Position numbers and translations under genes: made by a program. Below, in pieces: positions 20,506 to 33,038 of a stretch of DNA of 64,000 bases. The notes under the pieces were generated by a model, which was given only the letters and a program-made list of their open reading frames with translations, was not told where the DNA came from and did no database searches. This DNA is from a virus (lineage: Duplodnaviria > Heunggongvirae > Uroviricota > Caudoviricetes), in the IMG/VR virus record IMGVR_UViG_651703075_000001, positions 1 to 64,000 of that record; one strand, written 5' to 3'. Numbering within the stretch: position 1 is the first letter of the stretch; each line of letters opens with the position of its first letter.

Positions 20506-20752
20506 AAAGGCCAAGCTGCACCGTAGCAGTACAGTGGTGCTGAGCATCTTCCTCTTCATCCTCTCGATGCTGATCATCTTCGAGCCGCTGATCCCAGGGC
20601 TTGCAGGTGTTCTCGGTCCCGACCTATACCCCAAGGTCGTGGCAGGCGTCTCCATGCTGATTGCAGCAGGCCGGTACATCGTCCAAACCTCCCTCCGGGG
20701 CATGGTAGTTCAAGTATCGGATGAGATTCCCAAGGAGGAAGAGGAAAAATGA
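20486..20752 (+). CDS. holin (class II-like, two TMDs)
   Basis: 88 aa, two hydrophobic segments (VVLSIFLFILSMLIIF; VVAGVSMLIAAG), charged C-tail EEEEK, overlaps endolysin end. Confidence 0.45.
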   Translation: MLKLVAEKAKLHRSSTVVLSIFLFILSMLIIFEPLIPGLAGVLGPDLYPKVVAGVSMLIAAGRYIVQTSLRGMVVQVSDEIPKEEEEK

Positions 20753-21166
20753 AACTGATGACTGCCATGCGGATAGCGTTGGTAGTCCCTCGTTCTGGGG
20801 CTCTCCTGGCTTCTCCGGGAGAGTCATCAGAAAATCGACAGGCTGGAGCAGAGCCTGGCTTCTCTGGAGGCCAGCTACGCAGAAGCATCGGCATCGTACC
20901 GATCCTTCCGAAAGCAATGTCTGTCCGTGTTCTCAATGAACGAGGAACTGGTGATTCAAAACAAGACCCTGGAGGCCTCTGTGGGCTCCGTGGTACAACG
21001 TTTGGATCGGACCCCTACACTGACCCTACCCGAGGTGAAAGATGCGCCTACGAGCGTTCCTGGGCATGTGGCTGCTGAGCGTCTCTCTCCTGGGACTATG
21101 GAGTTGCTCAACGAAGCCTTCTGTGCCGCAGCCCCCGCAGGTCATCCTGCCTGTGCTCCCAAATGA
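20749..21166 (+). pseudogene. i-spanin (Rz)-like gene needing +1 frame change near 20786-20800
   Basis: frame 1 start MKLMTAMRIALVVP (20749) and frame 2 continuation SLVLGLSWLL + coiled coil IDRLEQSLASLEASYAEA... to stop 21166 together give TMD + periplasmic coiled coil; frame 2 has no start codon of its own. Confidence 0.35.
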
Positions 21167-21614
21167 GTGGACAACCCCCTGCGTAATCTTCCCGGTGGAA
21201 GAGGACACGGTAAAGGCCTTGGCCAAGGGGTACGTCCTGAACACTGGTGCAGCAGGTTGCGCCAACAACAAACTCCACTTCATCCAGCAGGGTACAAAGA
21301 CCTGGAGGCCCAGTATGGCAGCCGCACGCAGTAACAACGAAGACTCCCAGTGGAAGTATGTACTGGACCTGGCAGCAAAGTTCCTCCTACCCCTGCTGAT
21401 GGCATGGGCCACCTGGCAACAGACGCAGATTGGTAAGGTAGAGGATAGGCTGTATGCCCTCCAAGCTGTTGCTGTGACCGAGCAAAAACTGGTTGCCACG
21501 GAAAGCCGTATCCTGAACTACCTGGATGTTCGGCTAGGGGACCTGGACAAGAAGATGGAGGTCAATCAGAAATACTCCGAAATGATCATCCAGATGATGA
21601 AGCAGGAGCGGTAA
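21042..21614 (+). CDS. lipoprotein, o-spanin-like N-terminus fused to coiled-coil C-terminal region
   Basis: signal peptide + LGLWSC lipobox-like site, Pro-rich SVPQPPQVILPVLP, start embedded in Rz-like ORF (Rz1-like arrangement); 190 aa is long for o-spanin. Confidence 0.45.
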   Translation: MRLRAFLGMWLLSVSLLGLWSCSTKPSVPQPPQVILPVLPNEWTTPCVIFPVEEDTVKALAKGYVLNTGAAGCANNKLHFIQQGTKTWRPSMAAARSNNEDSQWKYVLDLAAKFLLPLLMAWATWQQTQIGKVEDRLYALQAVAVTEQKLVATESRILNYLDVRLGDLDKKMEVNQKYSEMIIQMMKQER

Positions 21615-23057: not shown

Positions 23058-23279
23058 ATGATTCCAGACCTCAAGGAGGCTTACCAGAAAGCCTCCAAGA
23101 GGACTAAGCTGTTGATACTGGCTGCCCTGGTTAGCCAAGCAGCGATAGCCCTCTACGAACAAGATAGAAGGTCTTTAAAAGACCCCCACCTGTCCAGGAT
23201 GTGTTTCGTACAACAAGGGGTTTTTGAAGTTACCCGAACAGGCCCTATCACCCGAATCTATTGCAAGAAAGGAGAGTAA
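23058..23279 (+). CDS. hypothetical protein
   Basis: 73 aa from internal ATG of track ORF 22971. Confidence 0.35.
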   Translation: MIPDLKEAYQKASKRTKLLILAALVSQAAIALYEQDRRSLKDPHLSRMCFVQQGVFEVTRTGPITRIYCKKGE

Positions 23280-23281
23280 AG

Positions 23282-23482
23282 ATGGTAATTTTCACTAAAG
23301 AACGGAACAACTTGGCCAACAGTGAGACGATCGCTATCAACGCCAAACACGTCACTGCTCTGGAAATCCCCGCGTCGAAGGAGGAAATCCGGGTAGGCCT
23401 CACAAGCGGGGTTATTATCCTGGACTTCCTCACCGCCCAGGATGCCAAACAAGCCTTCGAAACTCTGACTTTCGCCTGCTAA
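23282..23482 (+). CDS. hypothetical protein
   Basis: 66 aa, strong RBS aaaggagag. Confidence 0.45.
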   Translation: MVIFTKERNNLANSETIAINAKHVTALEIPASKEEIRVGLTSGVIILDFLTAQDAKQAFETLTFAC

Positions 23483-23492
23483 GGAGGTACCA

Positions 23493-23759
23493 ATGGAACT
23501 CGACATCCGCCAACCCAACCCTCCCTTCGATACCATCCGGATTGCGGATATCAGCGACGATATGAGCAATGTGTGCCTGATCACGTGCAAAGAGGCCCCT
23601 CCCGGAGCTGTGCGCTTGGTGTACCCGGACGAAGGCCAGGCTACATTTGGAATGCCAGGAGATATCGTGCAACAAGAGCTTCTGGTGGAGGACAAGATGC
23701 ACGCCAACTTCCTTATCATGGCGCTGGAGAAGGCTATCGAGTTGGGGTGGCTGAAATGA
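23493..23759 (+). CDS. hypothetical protein
   Basis: 88 aa, RBS aaggaggtacc. Confidence 0.5.
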   Translation: MELDIRQPNPPFDTIRIADISDDMSNVCLITCKEAPPGAVRLVYPDEGQATFGMPGDIVQQELLVEDKMHANFLIMALEKAIELGWLK

Positions 23760-24124
23760 TGGGACTGCCGATCTACCTGAGCGTTAGCGTCTACCACTTG
23801 GCAGGCCTTATCGCAGTCGCCTGCCTGGTCTACTGGGGTATCATCAAGATGACCCGGAGCGAGGTTGAACGAGGAAACATGACCAAGCCGCAAGCGTCCT
23901 GGTGGCGTAAGTGGTACCCCGTGTGGGCTATCGTCTGCATCTCGGTCTCGTGCCTGGGCTTCGGCTACAAGGTGGAAGAGATTCGCCCGGTGGGCACGTT
24001 CCAATCCCATCCCACAACTGTTGACACAGGGGAGAAGAAGGAGTATCGTGCATACCGTGAAAAGGCAGAAGAGCGGTTCAACAAGACCCTCGAAGCCATC
24101 GAAACGAAAAACAACCTGAAGTAA
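23756..24124 (+). CDS. membrane protein, two TMDs (possible partner of SPFH protein)
   Basis: 122 aa from ATG overlapping upstream stop; TMDs LSVSVYHLAGLIAVACLVYWGII and VWAIVCISVSCLGFG; directly upstream of SPFH gene. Confidence 0.45.
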   Translation: MMGLPIYLSVSVYHLAGLIAVACLVYWGIIKMTRSEVERGNMTKPQASWWRKWYPVWAIVCISVSCLGFGYKVEEIRPVGTFQSHPTTVDTGEKKEYRAYREKAEERFNKTLEAIETKNNLK

Positions 24125-24133
24125 GGAGGAAAG

Positions 24134-24985
24134 ATGTTCAAGAACCTGATGCGTGGCGTCGCCATTGTCCTGGCCCTGGCCCTGGTTGCAGGCTGCTCTG
24201 ATGTGGTACCGCCTGCCATGAAAGGCAAGCACCTCAGCGGTAGTGGCTACAGCACCAACGTCCTCGAACCTGGCCGTCACTGGCGCGCCCCGTGGACTCG
24301 TATCGTGATGCTGGATGTCTCCACCCAGACCGTCGCCGAGCCCCTGAAAGTGAAGATGGCCGACAATCTGGACCTGACGTTCGTGGTACGCTTCCGTACT
24401 CGAATCGCAGGCACCGAGCGAACCATCAATGCCATGTTCAACGATATCCGGGTGGAGAATGACCGAGTAACTCTCCAGCAGGTGTATGGTGTCTACGGTA
24501 AGGATGTGGTACAACGTGTCAGCCGCTCGGTCCTGGGCAAGTACCGCACCCAGGATGTGGCAGCCAACTTCGACAAGATCAACCAAGCCCTACACTCCCA
24601 ACTGGTAGCAGCAATGGAGGGTAGCCCTTTGGAGGTGAGCAACATCACCCTGGCTGACCTGCAATACCCGGAAGTGATTACGAAGGCTATCGAAGCTCAG
24701 AACGAGCGAGAGCTGGCTATCAAGACCGCCGAGAACGAACAGGCTATCGAGATGGTCAAGCGTGAGAACGCCCTGAAACTGGCCGAGGCGGATCGTGAAA
24801 TCGAACTGACCAAAGCACGTACTCTGGCTGACCAGAACGAAATCACGAACCGTGGCCTGTCGGAGCGGCTGCTCCAGTACAAGGCGCTGGAAGTCCAGAT
24901 GGAAATGACCAAGAATTCCTCTGCGGTGTTCGTACCCTACGAGGCTCTGACCAGCCCCGGCTTCCAGAACCGCGTCTACAAGTGA
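24134..24985 (+). CDS. SPFH/band-7 (stomatin/prohibitin/HflK-C-like) domain lipoprotein
   Basis: 283 aa; signal peptide + LVAGC lipobox; L-x-PG-x-H-x-x-x-P...V-x-VD-x-x-x-Q core and C-terminal Ala/Glu-rich coiled coil AIEAQNERELAIKTAENEQAIEMVKRENALKLAEADREIELTKA typical of SPFH proteins. Confidence 0.6.
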   Translation: MFKNLMRGVAIVLALALVAGCSDVVPPAMKGKHLSGSGYSTNVLEPGRHWRAPWTRIVMLDVSTQTVAEPLKVKMADNLDLTFVVRFRTRIAGTERTINAMFNDIRVENDRVTLQQVYGVYGKDVVQRVSRSVLGKYRTQDVAANFDKINQALHSQLVAAMEGSPLEVSNITLADLQYPEVITKAIEAQNERELAIKTAENEQAIEMVKRENALKLAEADREIELTKARTLADQNEITNRGLSERLLQYKALEVQMEMTKNSSAVFVPYEALTSPGFQNRVYK

Positions 24986-24989
24986 CCAA

Positions 24990-25021
24990 CAGGGGCCAGC
25001 CAGGCTGGCCCCATTTCTTTT
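24990..25021 (+). terminator. rho-independent terminator
   Basis: GGGGCCAGCCAGGCTGGCCCC hairpin + ATTTCTTTT. Confidence 0.65.
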
Positions 25022-25033
25022 GAAGGAGGATGC

Positions 25034-25354
25034 ATGGAACATAAAGCGTTGGAAGGTGTTAAACACAGAACGTGGGAAGTGGTGGATAGCGAGTTTGACG
25101 GAGTTTACATCCGAGAAGCCCTCCCTAAAGTGAGGGGTGGATACCTGATCGAGTACGTGATTGCCTCTGATGTTAAGGAAGAGCATGTTGCTACCCTGTG
25201 TGCTGCCCGGGAGCTGAAAGCGGAGCTGGAGCGCCTGTGCCGGATGAGTGAGTCCAGCTTTATCCTCTTGGGCTGGGAAGAAAAGGACATTGAAAGCGTC
25301 CTCGCTCCCGCAAAAGCAGCCCTGGCCTTGGCCAACAAAAACTGGGAGAAGTGA
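25034..25354 (+). CDS. hypothetical protein
   Basis: 106 aa, RBS gaaggagga. Confidence 0.5.
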   Translation: MEHKALEGVKHRTWEVVDSEFDGVYIREALPKVRGGYLIEYVIASDVKEEHVATLCAARELKAELERLCRMSESSFILLGWEEKDIESVLAPAKAALALANKNWEK

Positions 25355-25355
25355 G

Positions 25356-25727
25356 ATGGACGTGATGGACGACGATTTTGAGTTCCCTGATATCCTGCCG
25401 GAGTGGGCTGAAGAGTTTCATCCCTCGGAAGGAAAGCACCAGATAGGGGCGCAGTTGGCGACTAAGGATGGACGAGTAACTGGGAATGGGGTGATATTCT
25501 GTGCTGTGCCGTGGAAATTCTACCCTAAGCTTGACCTGTTCCTTGTGGTGACGGATGCAGGAAACGTTCTCAAGTTGACCGAGTACGAGTTGAACAGCCT
25601 CTTCCACTGGCCACAATATATTGCCGACCTCAACCAACCGACTCCGGCTGAGGTGATGTATACGGTAAAGACAGGACCAATTGGGGACCTTATTCAAGAC
25701 TTCAAGGAGGAAAACGGACATGCGTAA
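25356..25727 (+). CDS. hypothetical protein
   Basis: 123 aa from ATG with RBS gggaga just after upstream stop. Confidence 0.45.
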   Translation: MDVMDDDFEFPDILPEWAEEFHPSEGKHQIGAQLATKDGRVTGNGVIFCAVPWKFYPKLDLFLVVTDAGNVLKLTEYELNSLFHWPQYIADLNQPTPAEVMYTVKTGPIGDLIQDFKEENGHA

Positions 25728-26940
25728 ACTATCTTCAATTCGTCAAGTGTCAGGTATCGAACCCATCGAGGGTGCAGACCGGATCGAGAAGGCCTTCTTC
25801 GGGGGCTGGACCACCATCGTTCCAAAAGGTGTGCTGTCCCCCGGCGACCTGGCAGTCTACTTCGAGATTGACAGCCTGCTGCCTGTGGCAGACCCAGCAT
25901 TCTCTCACCTCACCAAGAACCTGGTGAAGGTTACCCGGAAGAAAGAGTCCTGTTCCCTGGGGATGGGTTGCGAGGTGGTGGGAGCCTGTTATGCCTCGTC
26001 GCAAGGTTGCCCTAGTGAGTGCGGTGGCGAAGAGGAGGTGGTATACTCTCGCCTGCGGACTATGAAAATGCGAGGTGTAACCTCCCAGGGTTTGGCCCTT
26101 CCTCTACGAGCCTTCCCAGGCCGCCTGGCACAGTTGGAAGCTGGCATCCTTCGCCGGCTACAGAAAGCACCCGTGCAAGAGGTGTTGGACGACCTGAATG
26201 AGAAGATGCCGCTGGATGAAATGCTCGGCGTGCTGAAGTACGAGAAACCTGAAGAGGTGGAGGCAGGGAATAGTAATGTCTCCCGCGTCAGCACGTTCCC
26301 CTCATACATCCCGAAGACGGACCAGGAAAGGGTCCAGAACATCCCGCTGGAGAAGGTCATTGCAGATGGACCATATCAGGTAACCATCAAGATGGATGGC
26401 TCCAGTTGCACCGTATGGGTGAATGAAGAGGGTGTGGGCATGGCCAGCCGAAATCAAACACTCGTGGAGCCCACCTGGACGAATTTCCCCAGCTTCGAGG
26501 ATTGCAATCACTTTGGGCAGGCCGTCCTGGACCAGGACATCCCGCGCAAGTTGGCAGAGTTCTATGAACTCAGCAAACAGCCGTTCGCAATTCAAGGCGA
26601 GGTGTGTGGCCCGGCTATTCAGGGCAACAAGGAGAAACTGGAGAAACCTACCTTCTTCTTGTTCAGTGTCTTCAACATCAAGGAGGGTGCCTACGAGTCC
26701 CCAGAGTATTGCAGGATGCTGGCGGAAACTCTCGATATTAAGCATGTGCCTGTGCTCTCGACTCAGCATGTGTTTGAAGATGTCACTTATGCCGACATCC
26801 TTGCCATGGCTGAAGGTAAGAGCTATAATCCTGCCACCAACAGGGAAGGCCTTGTTTTCACAGCGGTAGACAAGAACCGCTACGGTCACTACCCCCATTT
26901 CAAAGCTATCAGCCAATCTTGGCTGGCGAAACACGAGTAA
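25720..26940 (+). CDS. ATP-dependent RNA ligase (Rnl5/DraRnl-like: N-terminal OB-like region + nucleotidyltransferase)
   Basis: 406 aa, RBS aaggagga; motif I TIKMDGSS (KxDG), motif IV EGLVF, motif V HFKAIS; Cys-rich insert CSLGMGCEVVGACYASSQGCPSECGG. Confidence 0.55.
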   Translation: MRKLSSIRQVSGIEPIEGADRIEKAFFGGWTTIVPKGVLSPGDLAVYFEIDSLLPVADPAFSHLTKNLVKVTRKKESCSLGMGCEVVGACYASSQGCPSECGGEEEVVYSRLRTMKMRGVTSQGLALPLRAFPGRLAQLEAGILRRLQKAPVQEVLDDLNEKMPLDEMLGVLKYEKPEEVEAGNSNVSRVSTFPSYIPKTDQERVQNIPLEKVIADGPYQVTIKMDGSSCTVWVNEEGVGMASRNQTLVEPTWTNFPSFEDCNHFGQAVLDQDIPRKLAEFYELSKQPFAIQGEVCGPAIQGNKEKLEKPTFFLFSVFNIKEGAYESPEYCRMLAETLDIKHVPVLSTQHVFEDVTYADILAMAEGKSYNPATNREGLVFTAVDKNRYGHYPHFKAISQSWLAKHE

Positions 26941-28094: not shown

Positions 28095-28360
28095 TGGCAA
28101 AGCTGAAGCTAGATGGGAACATCCTCACCGTGATGGAACTGACGGCAGGTCAGGCCGTCAAGAAGGTGAAGCAACGCATTCGGATGGATGTTGACTTTAC
28201 CCAGGTAACTGTGGTACAGTCTGGTCCTGGAGTATTCCAAGTCTCTTACCCTCTGAACAAGGGTGAGCGTGGAAGCTACAAGCACCTCTATGACAAGCAG
28301 GAGAAGGAGCGTAAGGCGAACAACCCGCCTCCCGAGCCACCACCCCTCCTGCTGGCGTAA
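28094..28360 (+). CDS. hypothetical protein
   Basis: 88 aa, TAATG overlap. Confidence 0.45.
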   Translation: MAKLKLDGNILTVMELTAGQAVKKVKQRIRMDVDFTQVTVVQSGPGVFQVSYPLNKGERGSYKHLYDKQEKERKANNPPPEPPPLLLA

Positions 28361-28363
28361 CCC

Positions 28364-28390
28364 TCAGGGCCCTCCGTGGGCCCTTTTTAT
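28364..28390 (+). terminator. rho-independent terminator (GGGCCCTCCGTGGGCCC + TTTTT)
   Basis: GC hairpin plus T tract. Confidence 0.7.
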
Positions 28391-30380: not shown

Positions 30381-33038
30381 GTGGAAGAGGTACAGAAACG
30401 CCGGGTAGTATTCGATATCGAGGCTACCGGGCTGATCGGGGAGGGGACGGTGGATTACACCGCCTCACCCTGGCGCCTGAAAGAGGATTTCAAGCTACAC
30501 TGTGCTGTAGCTCGGGACATTGACACCGACGAGGTGTTCAAGTGGGGTCCTGACGAGGTGATGGACTTCGCCAAATGGCTGGGTGAAGAGTGCTCGGTCG
30601 TAATTGGCCACAACATTATCAACTACGACTTGCTGGCTCTGAAGCTGACATGCGGGCTGGAGTACACCATCGGGTGGGGAGAGACCAAGGACACCATCAA
30701 CGGTAACCCCGTCAAGATCGTGGACACCCTGGTAATCTCCAAAGCCCTTAACCCTGACCGTCGCCCTGGCCACGGCATTGGGGCTTGGGGTGACAAGCTG
30801 GGCCTGGCCAAGATCGATTGGCGTGCGAAGGCTGTCGAACTGGGATTGATTACCGAGAACGCCCCTCGTGGTGCAGAGTTCAAGACGTATCACCCGGAGA
30901 TGCTGGAGTACAACGTCCGAGACGTGGATGTCAACCTGCTGGTCTACAAAGCTCTGATGGCAGAGTGGGGTGCATGGAACTGGGCTCCGGCAGTCCAGAC
31001 CGAAAGCTACGTGGCTTGGGTGGTGACCCGTCAAAGTCACAGGGGGTTCTTCTTCGACGAGCGCCTGGCCCAGGCCAACGTCCGGGAGCTGGATCAACTG
31101 ATGGAGGAGTGTCGTGCCATTGTTGAACCGATCCTTCCCCCGAAGAAGCCGACCAAGACGGAAGCTGCCAAGTATTGCTTCCCGAAGACCCAGGAGAAGA
31201 AGATCAAGGGCGGTCTGGGACTCTCCAGCAACATGGAGAAGTTCCTGGAGAAGATGGGCGGTAAGCACCTTCCACGTTCGGGGCCGGATGCTCCCAACTA
31301 CGTGGAAATCAACGGCAGGACGTATGGCCTACCGTTCGATCATACGGTAAGCTTGCTTACCGAGGTGCCTGCCAAGATCAGCGATACAACCCACATCAAG
31401 GGTTGGCTGGTGGACATGGGATGGGACCCGACTTCGTGGAAGGAGCGTGATCTTTCGTCGGATCAGAAGACGAAGGCCCAGCTACCTTTCGAGAAGTTCG
31501 AAAAGGTGGTTACCTCGTACATCGAGCAAACCTATGCAAGCCCGTTCAAGAAGTACCGCCTGGAGCACCTGAAAGAGAAGCTGCGTGCTAAGTGGTCCCT
31601 GGCCTTCATGATGGACAACCCAGATATCGTTCTGGAGTACATCCTGGAGCGAGGCAATGATCGTCAGTTGAAGGTGTGGACCAACCCGGAGTTCACCGTA
31701 GGTCAGGACAAGGACCTCTGTCCCGCCCTGGAACGAATCTCCGAGAAGTTCCCTCACGTTCGGCACGTGACCAACTACCTGACGTATCGCCATCGGCGGA
31801 ACTCGATCCTAGGTGGTGGGTATGACCCGGACGACCTGGACGAAGACGGCATGCCTGTCAAGGGGTACATGGCCTACCAGCGTGAAGATGGTCGGATTGC
31901 AACTCCGGCAGACAGTTGTGGTGCTGGTACCAGCCGGTTCAAACACAAGCAGGTGGCCAACATTCCTCGTGTGACCTCGCTGTACGGGGTACCGATGCGA
32001 AACCTGTTCGGCGTGGACACCAACAAGTGTTGGCAGATTGGCTACGACTTTGACTCCCTGGAAGCGAAGATCGAAGCCCACTACTGCCTGAGCACGGCAA
32101 TGCGTCTCAGCCCTGCTGCGGCACAGAAGCTCAAGATCAAGTTTGGGTCCAACTTCGCCAAGTACCGGGAAGCGTGCATCCAGGCAGCGCAAGAGTATGC
32201 GGTAGCGCTTGTGGCTGAGAAGCCCAACGATATTCACACGGTGACGGCGGCGAAGATTTCCACCATCATCGGAGGAGACTTCAGTCGTACCAATGCCAAG
32301 TCGGTCAAGTATGGCTGCTCCTACGGGGCTCAGGTGGCACGTGTAGCGAAGATCGTCGGCTGCTCTATGCAGGAGGCCCAGGCCATCTTCGACGCCTTCT
32401 GGGAGGCTGCTAGCCCCCTTGCGCTGCTGAAGACGGTTCTCACCGACTTCTGGAAGGAGAAGGGGAACAAGAAGTTCATCGTTGGGATCGATGGCCGCCA
32501 GATTCCTACCCGTTCGGAGCATGCTCTGGTCAACAGCCTGTTCCAATCGGCAGGTGTTATCTGCGCCAAGGTGGCGATGATCATGCACGACCAGAAGCTG
32601 ATGGCTGAAGGTCTGCTGGTAGACTTCTGGAAGGACGACTGGAAGAACAAGTCGTACTGCCAGCAGCTCATTGCTTACCACGATGAGAGCCAGTTGGAAG
32701 TGACCAAGGATTTGGTCAAGTTCAAGATGTTCTCCAAGGAAGCCTTGGGCTGGCAAGAGATGCAGCACGAGGACCCAGAGGAGCAGAAGAAGCTTCAGAA
32801 GAAGGAAGACGCTCGATGCAAGGCCCTGGTCCAGAAGTGGAAGGACGAGATGGAAGAGTCCTCGGGTCAAATCTGGAGCGACATCGGAGAGTCCCCGAAG
32901 GGTGGTTGGTTCGTAGGCTACAGTCGAGCAGGGGAGACGGCTATCGAGGCTGTCAAAGCTGCTGGTGAACACTTCAAGCTGCGAGTAGACCTGTCCGCAG
33001 GGTACATGTTGGGAACTACGTGGGGCACCTGCCACTAA
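30381..33038 (+). CDS. DNA polymerase, family A (T7 gp5-like) with 3'-5' exonuclease domain
   Basis: 885 aa; Exo I VVFDIEATG, Exo II/III motifs, pol motif A DYDSLEAKI, motif B KxxxxxxxYG (KSVKYGCSYG), motif C YHDESQ. Confidence 0.85.
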   Translation: MEEVQKRRVVFDIEATGLIGEGTVDYTASPWRLKEDFKLHCAVARDIDTDEVFKWGPDEVMDFAKWLGEECSVVIGHNIINYDLLALKLTCGLEYTIGWGETKDTINGNPVKIVDTLVISKALNPDRRPGHGIGAWGDKLGLAKIDWRAKAVELGLITENAPRGAEFKTYHPEMLEYNVRDVDVNLLVYKALMAEWGAWNWAPAVQTESYVAWVVTRQSHRGFFFDERLAQANVRELDQLMEECRAIVEPILPPKKPTKTEAAKYCFPKTQEKKIKGGLGLSSNMEKFLEKMGGKHLPRSGPDAPNYVEINGRTYGLPFDHTVSLLTEVPAKISDTTHIKGWLVDMGWDPTSWKERDLSSDQKTKAQLPFEKFEKVVTSYIEQTYASPFKKYRLEHLKEKLRAKWSLAFMMDNPDIVLEYILERGNDRQLKVWTNPEFTVGQDKDLCPALERISEKFPHVRHVTNYLTYRHRRNSILGGGYDPDDLDEDGMPVKGYMAYQREDGRIATPADSCGAGTSRFKHKQVANIPRVTSLYGVPMRNLFGVDTNKCWQIGYDFDSLEAKIEAHYCLSTAMRLSPAAAQKLKIKFGSNFAKYREACIQAAQEYAVALVAEKPNDIHTVTAAKISTIIGGDFSRTNAKSVKYGCSYGAQVARVAKIVGCSMQEAQAIFDAFWEAASPLALLKTVLTDFWKEKGNKKFIVGIDGRQIPTRSEHALVNSLFQSAGVICAKVAMIMHDQKLMAEGLLVDFWKDDWKNKSYCQQLIAYHDESQLEVTKDLVKFKMFSKEALGWQEMQHEDPEEQKKLQKKEDARCKALVQKWKDEMEESSGQIWSDIGESPKGGWFVGYSRAGETAIEAVKAAGEHFKLRVDLSAGYMLGTTWGTCH

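What the first reader, a model, noticed from the sequence alone, without database searches (positions are those of the whole stretch)
23756..24985. Phage-encoded SPFH/band-7 lipoprotein with an upstream two-TMD partner
A 283-aa protein with lipoprotein signal (LVAGC), SPFH core and an HflK/C-like coiled coil is encoded after a 122-aa two-TMD protein whose start overlaps the preceding gene, followed by a terminator. SPFH proteins organise membrane microdomains and regulate membrane proteases (the HflK/C-FtsH paradigm). A phage copy is uncommon and could modulate host membrane proteases, act in superinfection exclusion, or counteract membrane-associated defense.
Basis: partly seen in the sequence, partly recalled or inferred. 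Interest (0 to 1): 0.6.

Follow-up and report, generated by a model that had tools for sequence, protein, structure and literature searches.

The report
Phage periplasmic SPFH lipoprotein with hairpin partner
Pseudomonas phage KPP10 carries a small, mobile two-gene cassette, a lipid-anchored periplasmic SPFH ("band 7") scaffold protein and a dedicated two-helix membrane partner, that recurs in many large lytic phages and a few bacteria, is switched on early by the host polymerase, and has never been studied functionally.

Summary
The window is Pseudomonas phage KPP10, and the two genes are ORF37 (23756-24124) and ORF38 (24134-24985), equivalent to PAK_P3 gp40 and gp41.

**ORF38.** It is a genuine SPFH protein: Pfam Band_7 E=1.5e-19, and a predicted fold matching full-length prohibitin, HflK/C, stomatin and QmcA. 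It has a canonical lipobox (VAGC, Cys21). It belongs to a small, distinct subfamily of about 400 clusters among 1.84 billion, in which about 90% of members carry a lipobox.

**ORF37.** It is not NfeD. It is a divergent member of a family of two-transmembrane "hairpin plus periplasmic tail" proteins. A protein of this architecture lies immediately next to the SPFH gene in every lineage examined. It is upstream in the KPP10 clade. It is downstream in distant phage clades and in bacterial chromosomes.

**Expression.** ORF38 has its own early-type sigma-70-like promoter inside ORF37, a strong ribosome-binding site and a strong terminator. PAK_P3 RNA-seq shows gp41 abundant at 3.5 and 13 min, with gp40 4-24-fold lower per nucleotide.

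**Distribution.** The sister genus (PAK_P1) lacks the cassette.

**Function.** Function is untested. The best inference is a periplasm-facing cage with a membrane partner that maintains or remodels the envelope. HflK/C membership is not met. It is a new variant of a known kind, of moderate interest.

The parts
23756..24124 (+). ORF37 (KPP10_gp037; PAK_P3 gp40): 122-aa inner-membrane hairpin partner. It has two transmembrane segments (about aa 6-30 and 54-70), a K/R-rich loop between them, and a 52-aa tail inferred to be periplasmic, ending in a helix (aa 95-121).
   Evidence: - ORF and ATGA overlap with ORF36.
- phrog_13586, no Pfam or NfeD hit.
- A profile of partner ORFs from other phages hits it end-to-end at 29.9 bits; 0 of 1000 segment-preserving shuffles exceed 13.8 bits.
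- Charge distribution.
- AF2 secondary structure.
24021..24049 (+). Sigma-70-like promoter TTGACA-17-TATCGT inside the 3' end of ORF37, about 85 nt upstream of the ORF38 start. It belongs to the phage's early-promoter class.
   Evidence: - Promoter scan.
- The pattern TTGACA-N16-18-TANNNT occurs 10 times in the window, all on the + strand, against 0.85 expected. Eight lie at 46-58 kb, which appears to correspond to PAK_P3's early gene block (inferred from collinearity, not mapped here). One corresponds to PAK_P3 promoter_02.
- Both hexamers are conserved in PAK_P3 and Epa18, with one spacer substitution.
- PAK_P3 RNA-seq read density steps up between gp40 and gp41.
24123..24129 (+). Shine-Dalgarno sequence AAGGAGG, 4 nt before the ORF38 ATG. 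It overlaps the ORF37 stop codon TAA (24122-24124).
   Evidence: Read directly from the sequence.
24134..24985 (+). ORF38 (KPP10_gp038; PAK_P3 gp41): 283-aa SPFH/band-7 lipoprotein precursor.
   Evidence: - Pfam Band_7 E=1.5e-19.
- phrog_200 E=5.8e-61.
- AF2 pLDDT 84.
- Foldseek top matches PHB1/2, HflK/C, stomatin, QmcA.
- 9 synonymous against 2 non-synonymous codon differences versus PAK_P3.
24134..24196 (+). Type II (lipoprotein) signal peptide, aa 1-20, plus the lipobox V-A-G-C. The acylated Cys21 codon is at 24194-24196.
   Evidence: - Sequence.
- Cys21 is invariant in 34 close and 12 broad homologues.
- 112 of 124 full-length subfamily representatives carry a lipobox-like motif.
24194..24664 (+). 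SPFH alpha/beta domain, aa 21-177. It starts directly after the lipidated Cys, with no tether.
   Evidence: AF2 secondary structure with strands from residue 21; Pfam match aa 37-202.
24671..24913 (+). Coiled-coil region: CC1 helix aa 180-241 (62 residues) and CC2 helix aa 244-260. These are the wall and the roof of SPFH cages.
   Evidence: AF2 model; Foldseek alignment to cage-forming SPFH proteins; the published CC1-length regression gives about 21 subunits.
24923..24943 (+). Conserved C-terminal motif A-V-F-V-P-Y-E (aa 264-270). It sits at the position of the cap-forming beta-strand in prohibitin and erlin cages.
   Evidence: P268 is invariant and F266, Y269 and E270 are at least 90% conserved in the family. 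The analogy to the beta9 layer comes from PMC12624060.
24992..25022 (+). Intrinsic terminator: stem-loop GGGGCCAGC-CAG-GCTGGCCCC followed by ATTTCTTTT.
   Evidence: - Terminator scan.
- Free energy -20.3 kcal/mol, z = -2.9.
- Identical in PAK_P3.
- gp42 read density is about 4-fold lower than gp41.

Best explanation
ORF37 and ORF38 form a self-contained, horizontally mobile two-gene envelope cassette.

**Shown**
- ORF38 is a full-length SPFH protein with a lipoprotein signal. Its SPFH domain begins immediately after the lipidated cysteine.
- ORF37 is a member of the partner family that always accompanies this SPFH subfamily.
- ORF38 has its own early-type sigma-70-like promoter, a strong ribosome-binding site and a terminator.
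- In PAK_P3 the orthologue is transcribed by 3.5 min and stays on.

**Inferred**
1. After export and lipidation, about 20-24 copies of ORF38 assemble into a prohibitin/HflK/C-like dome. The dome sits flat on the periplasmic leaflet, most likely of the inner membrane.
2. ORF37 inserts as an N-out/C-out hairpin. Its conserved juxtamembrane motif and C-terminal helix bind the SPFH ring. It supplies the transmembrane 'fence' or a regulatory element that a lipid-anchored SPFH lacks. This is a periplasmic, non-homologous analogue of the NfeD partner in QmcA-YbbJ.
3. The phage uses this bacterial-type module as an auxiliary envelope-maintenance device. It corrals or stabilises inner-membrane proteins and lipids, keeping the envelope intact and energised from early infection until programmed lysis, while host gene expression collapses.
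For: **SPFH identity and full cage architecture**
- Pfam Band_7, AF2 model and Foldseek matches.
- CC1 of 62 aa gives about 21 subunits by the published regression.
- Conserved cap-strand motif.

**Lipoprotein anchor**
- Cys21 is invariant.
- 112 of 124 subfamily representatives carry a lipobox.
- Every host genus in the tally is, to my knowledge, Gram-negative.
- Distant clades carry a conserved CxxxC pair, which fits an oxidising periplasm.
- A few members replace the lipobox with an uncleaved N-terminal transmembrane helix, which fits an inner-membrane site.

**Partnership**
- A 97-138-aa protein with two transmembrane segments and a tail is adjacent in each of these groups:
  - about 25 loci of the close clade, where it lies upstream and often overlaps by 4 nt;
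  - five distant phage lineages, where it lies downstream;
  - the Methylotuvimicrobium chromosome and a Phycisphaeraceae MAG.
- ORF37 matches the partner profile at 29.9 bits, against a shuffle maximum of 13.8.
- In 25 partners the N-terminus has 0-1 K/R and the inter-helix loop has 2-7 K/R. This puts the tail in the periplasm.

**Own transcription unit and early onset**
- Promoter and terminator.
- PAK_P3 S5 Table: gp41 baseMean 25,101, log2FC -0.51 (not significant); gp40 1,721; gp42 2,457.

**Accessory and mobile**
- Only ORF37/38 are shared between lineages.
- The cassette is absent from the first 50 kb of Pakpunavirus PAK_P1, including the syntenic region. There the ORF36 homologue directly precedes the RNA ligase.

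**Cellular counterpart**
- The bacterial locus has no phage genes nearby.
Against: - No experiment addresses function, localisation, lipidation or oligomerisation.
- Position +2 after the Cys is S/G/T/N and almost never Asp. By the E. coli sorting rule this predicts outer-membrane targeting, so the inner-membrane placement is uncertain.
- gp40 mRNA is 4-24-fold rarer per nucleotide than gp41 mRNA. This argues against a strict 1:1 structural partner in Nankokuvirus.
- No complex prediction was possible with the tools available.
- The ORF37 model is of low confidence (pLDDT 66).
- The 'envelope maintenance' role rests on analogy with cellular SPFH proteins and on timing. It has no direct evidence.
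Confidence: 0.5

Rival explanations
1. Superinfection exclusion. The early-made periplasmic cage, together with its partner, blocks DNA entry or envelope penetration by secondary phages. It would do so by enclosing or masking an inner-membrane or periplasmic entry factor. The functional analogy is to the early T4 Imm/Sp proteins or the T5 Llp lipoprotein.
For: - ORF38 has an early host-type promoter and is abundant by 3.5 min.
- It is an accessory, mobile, moron-like cassette.
- It is an envelope lipoprotein.
- In Vi01-like phage PhiSH19 an SPFH gene lies one gene away from an annotated superinfection-exclusion gene.
Against: - There is no homology to any known exclusion protein.
- The same module occurs in bacterial chromosomes without phage context, which suggests a housekeeping envelope activity.
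- Among named records it is seen in large, mostly lytic phage genomes.
- No experimental data exist.
Confidence: 0.18
2. Protease control on the HflK/C-FtsH paradigm. The cage captures or shields a host membrane protease (FtsH, or an HtpX/M48-type enzyme) or its substrates. This would change the turnover of membrane or phage proteins.
For: - Like HflK/C, the SPFH domain faces the periplasm, and the fold matches HflK/C and prohibitin, both of which partner AAA proteases.
- In Methylotuvimicrobium an M48 peptidase gene lies about 1.4 kb upstream of the module.
Against: - ORF38 is not an HflK/C member. It has no transmembrane anchor, it is a single gene rather than a paralogue pair, and it has no HflK/HflC NCBIfam hit.
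- HflK contacts FtsH partly through membrane and cytoplasmic segments that ORF38 lacks (my knowledge of the published structures).
- The M48 neighbour is separated from the module by another gene and a 600-nt gap, and was seen in only one genome.
Confidence: 0.15
3. Outer-membrane or trans-envelope device. ORF38 is sorted by Lol to the inner leaflet of the outer membrane. It either acts there, affecting outer-membrane stability or vesiculation, or it meets the periplasmic tail of the inner-membrane protein ORF37 to bridge the two membranes.
For: - Asp is almost never at +2 (2 of 112), and G/T/S dominate.
- A prophage-island SPFH protein of Pasteurella is recovered in outer-membrane vesicles.
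Against: - The partner's most conserved motif lies right at the membrane surface after the second transmembrane segment. This fits contact with an SPFH ring on the same, inner membrane.
- Some subfamily members use an uncleaved transmembrane anchor, which can only be in the inner membrane.
- Sorting rules differ in Pseudomonas (my knowledge), so the +2 residue is weak evidence.
- The phage already has Rz-like spanins.
Confidence: 0.1
4. Lysis-timing control. ORF37 acts as a holin or antiholin-like membrane protein, and ORF38 modulates hole formation.
For: - The cassette lies about 3 kb downstream of the endolysin/holin/spanin block, within a run of small membrane proteins.
- ORF37 is small and has two transmembrane segments.
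Against: - A separate lysis cassette ends with an RNA-seq-supported terminator before this region.
- gp40 and gp41 are not late genes (log2FC 0.07 and -0.51, against +3 to +6 for the lysis genes).
- The inferred N-out/C-out topology with a long periplasmic tail is unlike class II holins.
- The module occurs far from lysis genes in other phages and in bacteria.
Confidence: 0.05

Closest known systems
Annotated phage 'SPFH domain / band 7' lipoproteins (PHROG phrog_200), for example PAK_P3 gp41, Erwinia phage RisingSun gp131, Klebsiella phage Miami gp157 and Pseudomonas phage pf16 gp165
   Same: Same protein family. Identity is 99% to PAK_P3 gp41 and 57-64% to the jumbo-phage and pf16 proteins, counted from the lipidated Cys onward. 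They share the same upstream hairpin partner gene.
   Different: Nothing is known about their function. The partner gene is annotated only as hypothetical, and I found no description of the two-gene module.
E. coli QmcA-YbbJ (SPFH-NfeD operon; PDB 8z5g)
   Same: An SPFH cage protein is encoded next to a small multi-spanning membrane partner. Foldseek matches QmcA at E=5e-11. The published complex has 26 heterodimers.
   Different: QmcA faces the cytoplasm and has a transmembrane anchor. YbbJ has an NfeD OB-fold domain. Here the SPFH is a periplasmic lipoprotein, and the partner has no NfeD domain by Pfam or by predicted structure.
HflK/C-FtsH complex (PDB 7vhq, 7wi3, 9cz2)
   Same: A periplasm-facing SPFH dome on the inner membrane, with the same SPFH-CC1-CC2-C-terminal layout.
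   Different: HflK/C is a heteromer of two paralogues with N-terminal transmembrane helices. ORF38 is a single lipoprotein. It has no HflK/HflC NCBIfam hit, sequence similarity is too weak for phmmer against the PDB, and there is no evidence of an FtsH link.
Prohibitin PHB1/PHB2 (PDB 8rrh, 9o9z)
   Same: Prohibitin is the best sequence match (PHB2, E=6e-4) and the best fold match (E=2e-14). The CC1 length predicts a similarly compact assembly of about 22 subunits.
   Different: Prohibitin is a mitochondrial hetero-oligomer with a transmembrane anchor. Identity is only 14-16%.
Early phage envelope and exclusion proteins (T5 Llp lipoprotein, T4 Imm/Sp)
   Same: They are made early and act in the envelope of the infected cell, and Llp is a lipoprotein (my knowledge).
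   Different: There is no sequence or fold relationship. Those proteins are small and do not form cages. The resemblance is only in timing and compartment.
Pasteurella multocida PM0222 (prophage-island 'HflK/C-like' SPFH protein)
   Same: It is an SPFH protein carried on a phage-derived element. It is found in outer-membrane vesicles and signals through TLR1/2.
   Different: The role studied is in host inflammation, not phage biology.

Membership tests
SPFH / Band 7 superfamily (Pfam PF01145) | Sequence match to the Band_7 profile above the curated cut-off | tested here: met
   71.2 bits against a cut-off of 23.6, E=1.5e-19, aa 37-202.
SPFH / Band 7 superfamily (Pfam PF01145) | SPFH alpha/beta domain followed by the CC1 and CC2 helices and a C-terminal cap element | tested here: met
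   AF2 model pLDDT 84. Foldseek aligns about 275 of 283 residues to PHB1/2, HflK/C, stomatin, QmcA and erlin.
SPFH / Band 7 superfamily (Pfam PF01145) | Assembly into a large ring or cage on a membrane | not testable with these tools
   Only a monomer could be modelled. The CC1-length regression suggests about 21 subunits.
Bacterial lipoprotein (Lgt/LspA/Lnt substrate) | Signal peptide ending in the lipobox [LVI][ASTVI][GAS]C | tested here: met
   MFKNLMRGVAIVLALALVAGC. The Cys is invariant in the family, and 112 of 124 representatives carry a lipobox-like motif.
Bacterial lipoprotein (Lgt/LspA/Lnt substrate) | Actual acylation, and the membrane of residence | not testable with these tools
   Requires globomycin or palmitate labelling and membrane fractionation. 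The +2 residue is Ser.
HflK/HflC | N-terminal transmembrane anchor (type II membrane protein) | tested here: not met
   ORF38 has a cleavable lipoprotein signal instead.
HflK/HflC | Two paralogous subunits encoded together | tested here: not met
   Related Nankokuvirus genomes have a single SPFH locus (1 place per record). The adjacent gene is a 122-aa hairpin protein, not an SPFH protein.
HflK/HflC | Match to the HflK/HflC equivalog models | tested here: not met
   No such NCBIfam hit at E<=0.1.
HflK/HflC | Physical complex with FtsH | not testable with these tools
   Requires pull-down or cryo-EM.
SPFH-NfeD operon | SPFH gene adjacent to a small membrane-protein gene | tested here: met
   ORF37 ends 9 nt before ORF38. 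This adjacency is conserved across lineages.
SPFH-NfeD operon | Partner carries the NfeD C-terminal OB-fold domain (PF01957) | tested here: not met
   No NfeD hit at E<=1 for ORF37 or five other partners. AF2 shows a transmembrane hairpin, a disordered linker and one helix. A canonical NfeD-stomatin pair (L040) looks different.
Phage hairpin-partner family (this work; ORF37 is phrog_13586, and other partners were not scanned against PHROGs) | Two transmembrane segments, a K/R-rich loop, a 43-70-aa hydrophilic tail, and a gene adjacent to an SPFH lipoprotein gene | tested here: met
   Profile hit of 29.9 bits, against a shuffle maximum of 13.8. Charge and topology table for 25 members.
Holin (for ORF37) | Late expression within the lysis cassette, with a cytoplasmic charged C-terminus | tested here: not met
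   PAK_P3 gp40 log2FC is 0.07. The gene lies outside the terminated lysis operon. The tail is inferred to be periplasmic.
Known anti-phage defence proteins (PADLOC) | Match to a defence-system profile | tested here: not met
   No hits for ORF36-39 at E<=0.1.
Moron-like autonomous cassette | Own promoter and terminator, with variable presence among related phages | tested here: met
   Promoter at 24021-24049 and terminator at 24992-25012. RNA-seq read density steps up and then down around gp41. The cassette is absent from the first 50 kb of PAK_P1, including the syntenic region. KPP10 is, to my knowledge, a lytic phage, so 'moron' is used loosely.

The most novel reading that the evidence does not exclude
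The cassette encodes a previously unrecognised class of periplasmic SPFH nanocage: lipid-anchored, with a non-NfeD hairpin partner. Large lytic phages exchange it horizontally. They deploy it within minutes of infection to enclose and neutralise a specific host envelope machine. The target could be a protease, a secondary-phage DNA-entry route, or a membrane-acting abortive-infection effector. That would make it a new mechanism of envelope takeover or exclusion, and a minimal two-component model for how SPFH cages select clients.
Probability: 0.15. Interest if true: 0.8.

Novelty: new variant of a known kind. Interest (0 to 1): 0.5.

Why it matters
- **Open question in SPFH biology.** SPFH cages (prohibitin, stomatin, flotillin, HflK/C, QmcA) have recently been solved structurally, but what they do to the membrane patch they enclose is still largely open.
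- **What is new here.** This cassette is a compact, two-gene, periplasm-facing version with a lipid anchor and a partner unrelated to NfeD.
- **Why it is likely adaptive.** It has spread among unrelated large phages of Gram-negative bacteria and is expressed from the first minutes of infection, so it presumably pays its way.
- **Why it is testable.** It sits in PAK_P3/KPP10-type therapeutic phages, for which transcriptomics already exists. Deletion, ectopic expression and cryo-EM are all straightforward. These experiments could show what a phage gains from an SPFH scaffold and how the partner shapes cage function.
- **Practical relevance.** If the role is exclusion or envelope protection, it also bears on the design of phage cocktails.

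Tried and rejected
- **NfeD identity of ORF37.** Rejected. No PF01957 hit for ORF37 or five other partners, and no OB-fold in the model.
- **HflK/C membership.** Rejected.
- **Defence-system protein.** No PADLOC hit.
- **ORF37 as an orphan restricted to Nankokuvirus.**
  - tblastn found it only in 40 Nankokuvirus records.
  - The 5.8-billion-protein search found one further cluster.
  - A profile built from neighbours of ORF38 homologues overturned this.
- **A third conserved gene in the module.** None was found; only an RNA ligase recurs nearby in some lineages.
- **Virion component.** RisingSun gp131 was detected by a single 95%-confidence peptide in a virion preparation. I judged this too weak, and expression in PAK_P3 is not late.
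- **Close-clade copies in bacterial genomes.** None in 185,579 species representatives.
  - A distant-clade alignment (A4) then found cellular loci.
- **Locus-tag search of the PAK_P3 supplement.** It found nothing because the table uses X815_ names. Reading the table directly worked.
- **The ONT-cappable-seq paper.** It has no held supplement, so the transcription start site could not be read.
- **The PAK_P3/PAK_P4 comparison paper.** It does not mention these genes.
- **Literature searches for a functional study of phage SPFH proteins.** None found.
Full report
**Identity of the locus**

The window is Pseudomonas phage KPP10 (genus Nankokuvirus). Window 23200-25400 is 100% identical to AB472900/NC_015272 at the same coordinates, and 40 related phage records match at 90-100%. 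The two genes are KPP10 ORF37 (23756-24124) and ORF38 (24134-24985). RefSeq calls ORF38 'lipoprotein', and other records of the genus call it 'SPFH domain / band 7 family protein'. In PAK_P3, the best-studied relative, they are gp40 and gp41.

**Check of the observation**

- ORF37 starts with an ATGA overlap on the stop of ORF36 and has two hydrophobic segments.
- ORF38 starts MFKNLMRGVAIVLALALVAGC, a textbook lipoprotein signal.
- ORF38 matches Pfam Band_7 at E=1.5e-19, 71 bits against a 23.6-bit cut-off.
- ORF38 is followed by a 9-bp, GC-rich hairpin plus a T-run, with a free energy of -20.3 kcal/mol.

An AlphaFold2 model built on 34 homologues (pLDDT 84) has these elements:
- the SPFH sheet begins at residue 21, directly after the cysteine;
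- a 62-residue helix (180-241) follows;
- then comes a second helix (244-260);
- the C-terminal motif AVFVPYE is conserved.

Foldseek aligns about 275 of 283 residues to prohibitin, HflK/C, stomatin, QmcA, erlin and flotillin chains, with a best E of 2e-14. ORF38 therefore has the complete architecture of a cage-forming SPFH protein. A published regression of subunit number on CC1 length (y = 0.1782x + 10.22; PMC12624060) would give about 21 subunits. That figure is an extrapolation.

**What kind of SPFH protein it is**

It is not a mainstream SPFH protein.
- phmmer against all PDB chains gives only weak hits (PHB2 at E=6e-4).
- No HflK/HflC model of NCBIfam matches.
- An exhaustive phmmer scan of 1.84 billion cluster representatives finds only 407 relatives at E<=1e-3, 201 at E<=1e-10 and 48 at E<=1e-30.

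This is a small, separate subfamily. Among the 124 full-length representatives in the top 150, 112 have a lipobox-like motif. Several of the rest have near-lipobox variants or an uncleaved N-terminal transmembrane helix. The lipidated Cys is invariant in both the close and the broad alignments. Distant members also carry a conserved CxxxC pair. All of this fits a periplasmic location.

Among phages, tblastn finds the protein in 141 of 50,697 records:
- the 40 Nankokuvirus records;
- 57-64% identical copies, counted from the Cys onward, in 235-310-kb jumbo phages of Pseudomonas, Erwinia, Klebsiella and Stenotrophomonas, and in Pseudomonas putida phage pf16;
- about 25% identical copies in Schizotequatrovirus phages of Vibrio, Demerecviridae or similar 112-125-kb phages of Aeromonas and Vibrio, and phages of Alteromonas, Acidovorax, Variovorax and Xanthomonas.

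It matches phrog_200, labelled 'lipoprotein', at E=5.8e-61.

**The partner**

By BLAST, ORF37 looks like a Nankokuvirus orphan. However, four distant phages each have a 102-116-aa ORF with two transmembrane segments and a hydrophilic tail directly before the SPFH gene, usually overlapping it by 4 nt. These are RisingSun, Miami, pf16 and BRkr.

I extended this to 23 IMG/VR loci. The same kind of ORF is upstream in every locus of the clade with at least 53% identity. Three apparent exceptions were artefacts of my ORF picker and were resolved by tblastn.

These partners share three motifs:
- an N-terminal Y-L-x-W/S-S motif;
- a juxtamembrane motif after the second transmembrane segment (F-[DN]-[VI]-G-x-R-Q-x-x-L-x-R-x-x-F-D);
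- a C-terminal helix.

A profile built from them without ORF37 aligns ORF37 end-to-end at 29.9 bits. None of 1000 shuffles that preserve the transmembrane and tail segments exceeded 13.8 bits. ORF37 is therefore a divergent member of the family.

In the distant SPFH clades the partner is still adjacent but lies downstream. This holds for Aeromonas AhP_Mru1, Vibrio 1.081.O, Alteromonas PT11-V22 and two IMG/VR contigs.

Across 25 partners the N-terminus carries 0-1 Lys/Arg and the loop between the helices carries 2-7. By the positive-inside rule the protein is N-out/C-out, which places its 43-70-residue tail in the periplasm with the SPFH lipoprotein.

None of six partners hits NfeD or any other Pfam family. 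The ORF37 model is a helical hairpin, a disordered linker (70-94) and one helix (95-121). The pair is thus analogous to the SPFH-NfeD operons, not homologous to them.

**Expression**

A sigma-70-like promoter, TTGACA-17-TATCGT, lies at 24021-24049, inside the end of ORF37.
- The pattern TTGACA-N16-18-TANNNT occurs ten times in the window, always on the coding strand, against 0.85 expected.
- Eight copies lie at 46-58 kb. By collinearity this appears to correspond to the PAK_P3 early block. I did not map it.
- One copy corresponds to PAK_P3 'promoter_02'.
- The tenth is this one.
- Both promoter hexamers, the AAGGAGG ribosome-binding site and the terminator are unchanged in PAK_P3; the spacer differs by one base.

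The PAK_P3 RNA-seq table (PMC4933390, S5 Table) gives the following.

| Gene | Reads at 3.5 min (three replicates) | Reads at 13 min (three replicates) | log2FC | baseMean |
|---|---|---|---|---|
| gp40 | 1,701 / 868 / 890 | 2,756 / 353 / 2,641 | 0.07 (not significant) | 1,721 |
| gp41 | 65,120 / 7,411 / 49,091 | 39,467 / 2,818 / 57,968 | -0.51 (not significant) | 25,101 |
| gp42 | not compared | not compared | 0.03 (not significant) | 2,457 |

Three points follow.
- Per nucleotide, gp41 is 4-24-fold above gp40 and about 4-fold above gp42.
- gp41 is comparable to the weaker bona fide early genes.
- ORF38 is thus largely its own transcription unit. It appears to be read by the host polymerase from the start of infection and stays on, while the partner transcript is much rarer.

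**Mobility and origin**

BLASTP of all neighbouring ORFs shows that only the SPFH gene is shared between lineages. The partner is shared too, but only at profile level. An RNA ligase recurs nearby in some lineages.

Pakpunavirus PAK_P1 has the same endolysin/holin/spanin block and the RNA ligase, but no ORF37 or ORF38. There the homologue of ORF36 (pairwise E=4e-8) sits directly next to the RNA ligase. ORF37-ORF40 are therefore an indel block between the two genera.

The close clade was not found in 185,579 representative bacterial and archaeal genomes. The distant clade was found:
- in the Methylotuvimicrobium buryatense 5G chromosome, as an SPFH lipoprotein plus a downstream hairpin protein, flanked by VWA, M48-peptidase, PP2C and kinase-like genes with no phage genes;
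- on a 619-kb Phycisphaeraceae contig.

Phages seem to have borrowed a rare bacterial envelope module.

**Mechanism**

The following are shown:
- an SPFH protein with a lipoprotein signal;
- a conserved, co-located hairpin partner;
- autonomous and early expression;
- an accessory distribution.

The following are inferred:
- ORF38 is exported, lipidated and assembled into a dome of about 20-24 subunits lying flat on a periplasmic leaflet;
- ORF37 binds the dome through its membrane-proximal motif and C-terminal helix, and provides the transmembrane element that a lipid-anchored SPFH lacks.

I favour the inner membrane for two reasons. The partner's conserved motif sits at the inner-membrane surface, and some family members use a transmembrane anchor. 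However, Asp is nearly absent at +2, which by the E. coli rule points to the outer membrane. This is unresolved.

For the biological role I commit, at modest confidence, to auxiliary envelope maintenance during infection. This means stabilising or compartmentalising inner-membrane components while host expression collapses. The reasons are:
- the module has a cellular counterpart;
- it is on from the start of infection;
- it is dispensable at the genus level.

Superinfection exclusion and protease control are live rivals. Lysis timing is unlikely.

**Comparison with what is known**

ORF38 works like the cage-forming SPFH proteins and is a member of the SPFH superfamily. It is not HflK/C, and the pair is not an SPFH-NfeD operon in the strict sense.

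I found no functional study of any phage SPFH protein. A 2026 paper on a Schitoviridae phage states that the reason for the gene's presence 'remains unclear'.

**Verdict**

The finding is real and correctly described. The SPFH lipoprotein is already annotated, so the bare observation is not new.

Four things go beyond what I found in the annotations and papers searched:
- the conserved non-NfeD partner;
- the delineation of a small lipoprotein-SPFH subfamily;
- the early autonomous transcription unit;
- the link to cellular loci.

I rate the finding a new variant of a known kind, with interest 0.5.

Noticed in passing
window 20749-21614: KPP10 differs from PAK_P3 in the lysis cassette by two single-base indels: an extra C at 20787 and a missing T near 21290. 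As a result, KPP10 ORF28 and ORF29 do not correspond to PAK_P3 gp30/gp31/gp32 (Rz-like spanins). These are probably sequencing errors, or else real frameshifts. The ORF29 N-terminus, MRLRAFLGMWLLSVSLLGLWSC, looks like an o-spanin lipoprotein signal embedded in the i-spanin gene, and PAK_P3 annotates a later start.
   Followed up: partly
window 23058-23279 (+): There is an unannotated ORF in the KPP10 record between ORF34 and ORF35. It corresponds to PAK_P3 gp37, one of five genes in the 'structural' half that are over-expressed early.
   Followed up: partly
window 21969, 24021, 46241, 49571, 50049, 52166, 52558, 53981, 54923, 57549 (+): TTGACA-N16-18-TANNNT occurs 10 times, all on the + strand, against 0.85 expected. 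Eight copies lie at 46-58 kb, apparently the early region. The two outliers precede ORF32 (PAK_P3 promoter_02) and ORF38.
   Followed up: partly
window 23493-23759 (ORF36) and 25720-26940 (ORF41 RNA ligase); L041 26743-28150: In Pakpunavirus PAK_P1 the ORF36 homologue (gp39c, pairwise E=4e-8) lies directly next to the RNA ligase. ORF37-ORF40 therefore form an indel block between the two genera.
   Followed up: yes
window 25720-26940; L005 752-1831; L020/L021 1021-2103; L031 702-1613: An RNA ligase gene lies within two genes of the SPFH module in KPP10, in pf16-like phages and in the T5-like Aeromonas phage AhP_Mru1. This may be coincidence, or it may be a larger block that travels together.
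   Followed up: no
L027, L029, L031, L033, L037 (SPFH proteins, about aa 50-60): Distant-clade SPFH lipoproteins share a conserved Cys pair, R-L-[DEP]-x-C-[WI]-x-Y-C-D-K-L, which is absent from the KPP10 clade. It is plausibly a periplasmic disulfide.
   Followed up: no
L012-L014, L028, about 2880-2935: In D6-like jumbo phages a GC-rich hairpin, AGCCCGATAAGTCGGGCT, sits between the partner gene and the SPFH gene, where other lineages have a 4-nt overlap. It may be an attenuator or a processing site.
   Followed up: no
L037 1872-2609: In Methylotuvimicrobium buryatense an M48-family peptidase gene (HEMGH motif) and a PP2C phosphatase gene lie just upstream of the cellular SPFH-lipoprotein/hairpin pair. 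This is a possible link to envelope proteolysis, but it was seen in only one genome.
   Followed up: partly
window about 28228-28389: According to PMC10914365, a short RNA species upstream of the PAK_P3 primase/helicase gene (PAK_P3 31147-31308) is conserved in KPP10. By the 2919-nt offset it would fall just before ORF46.
   Followed up: no
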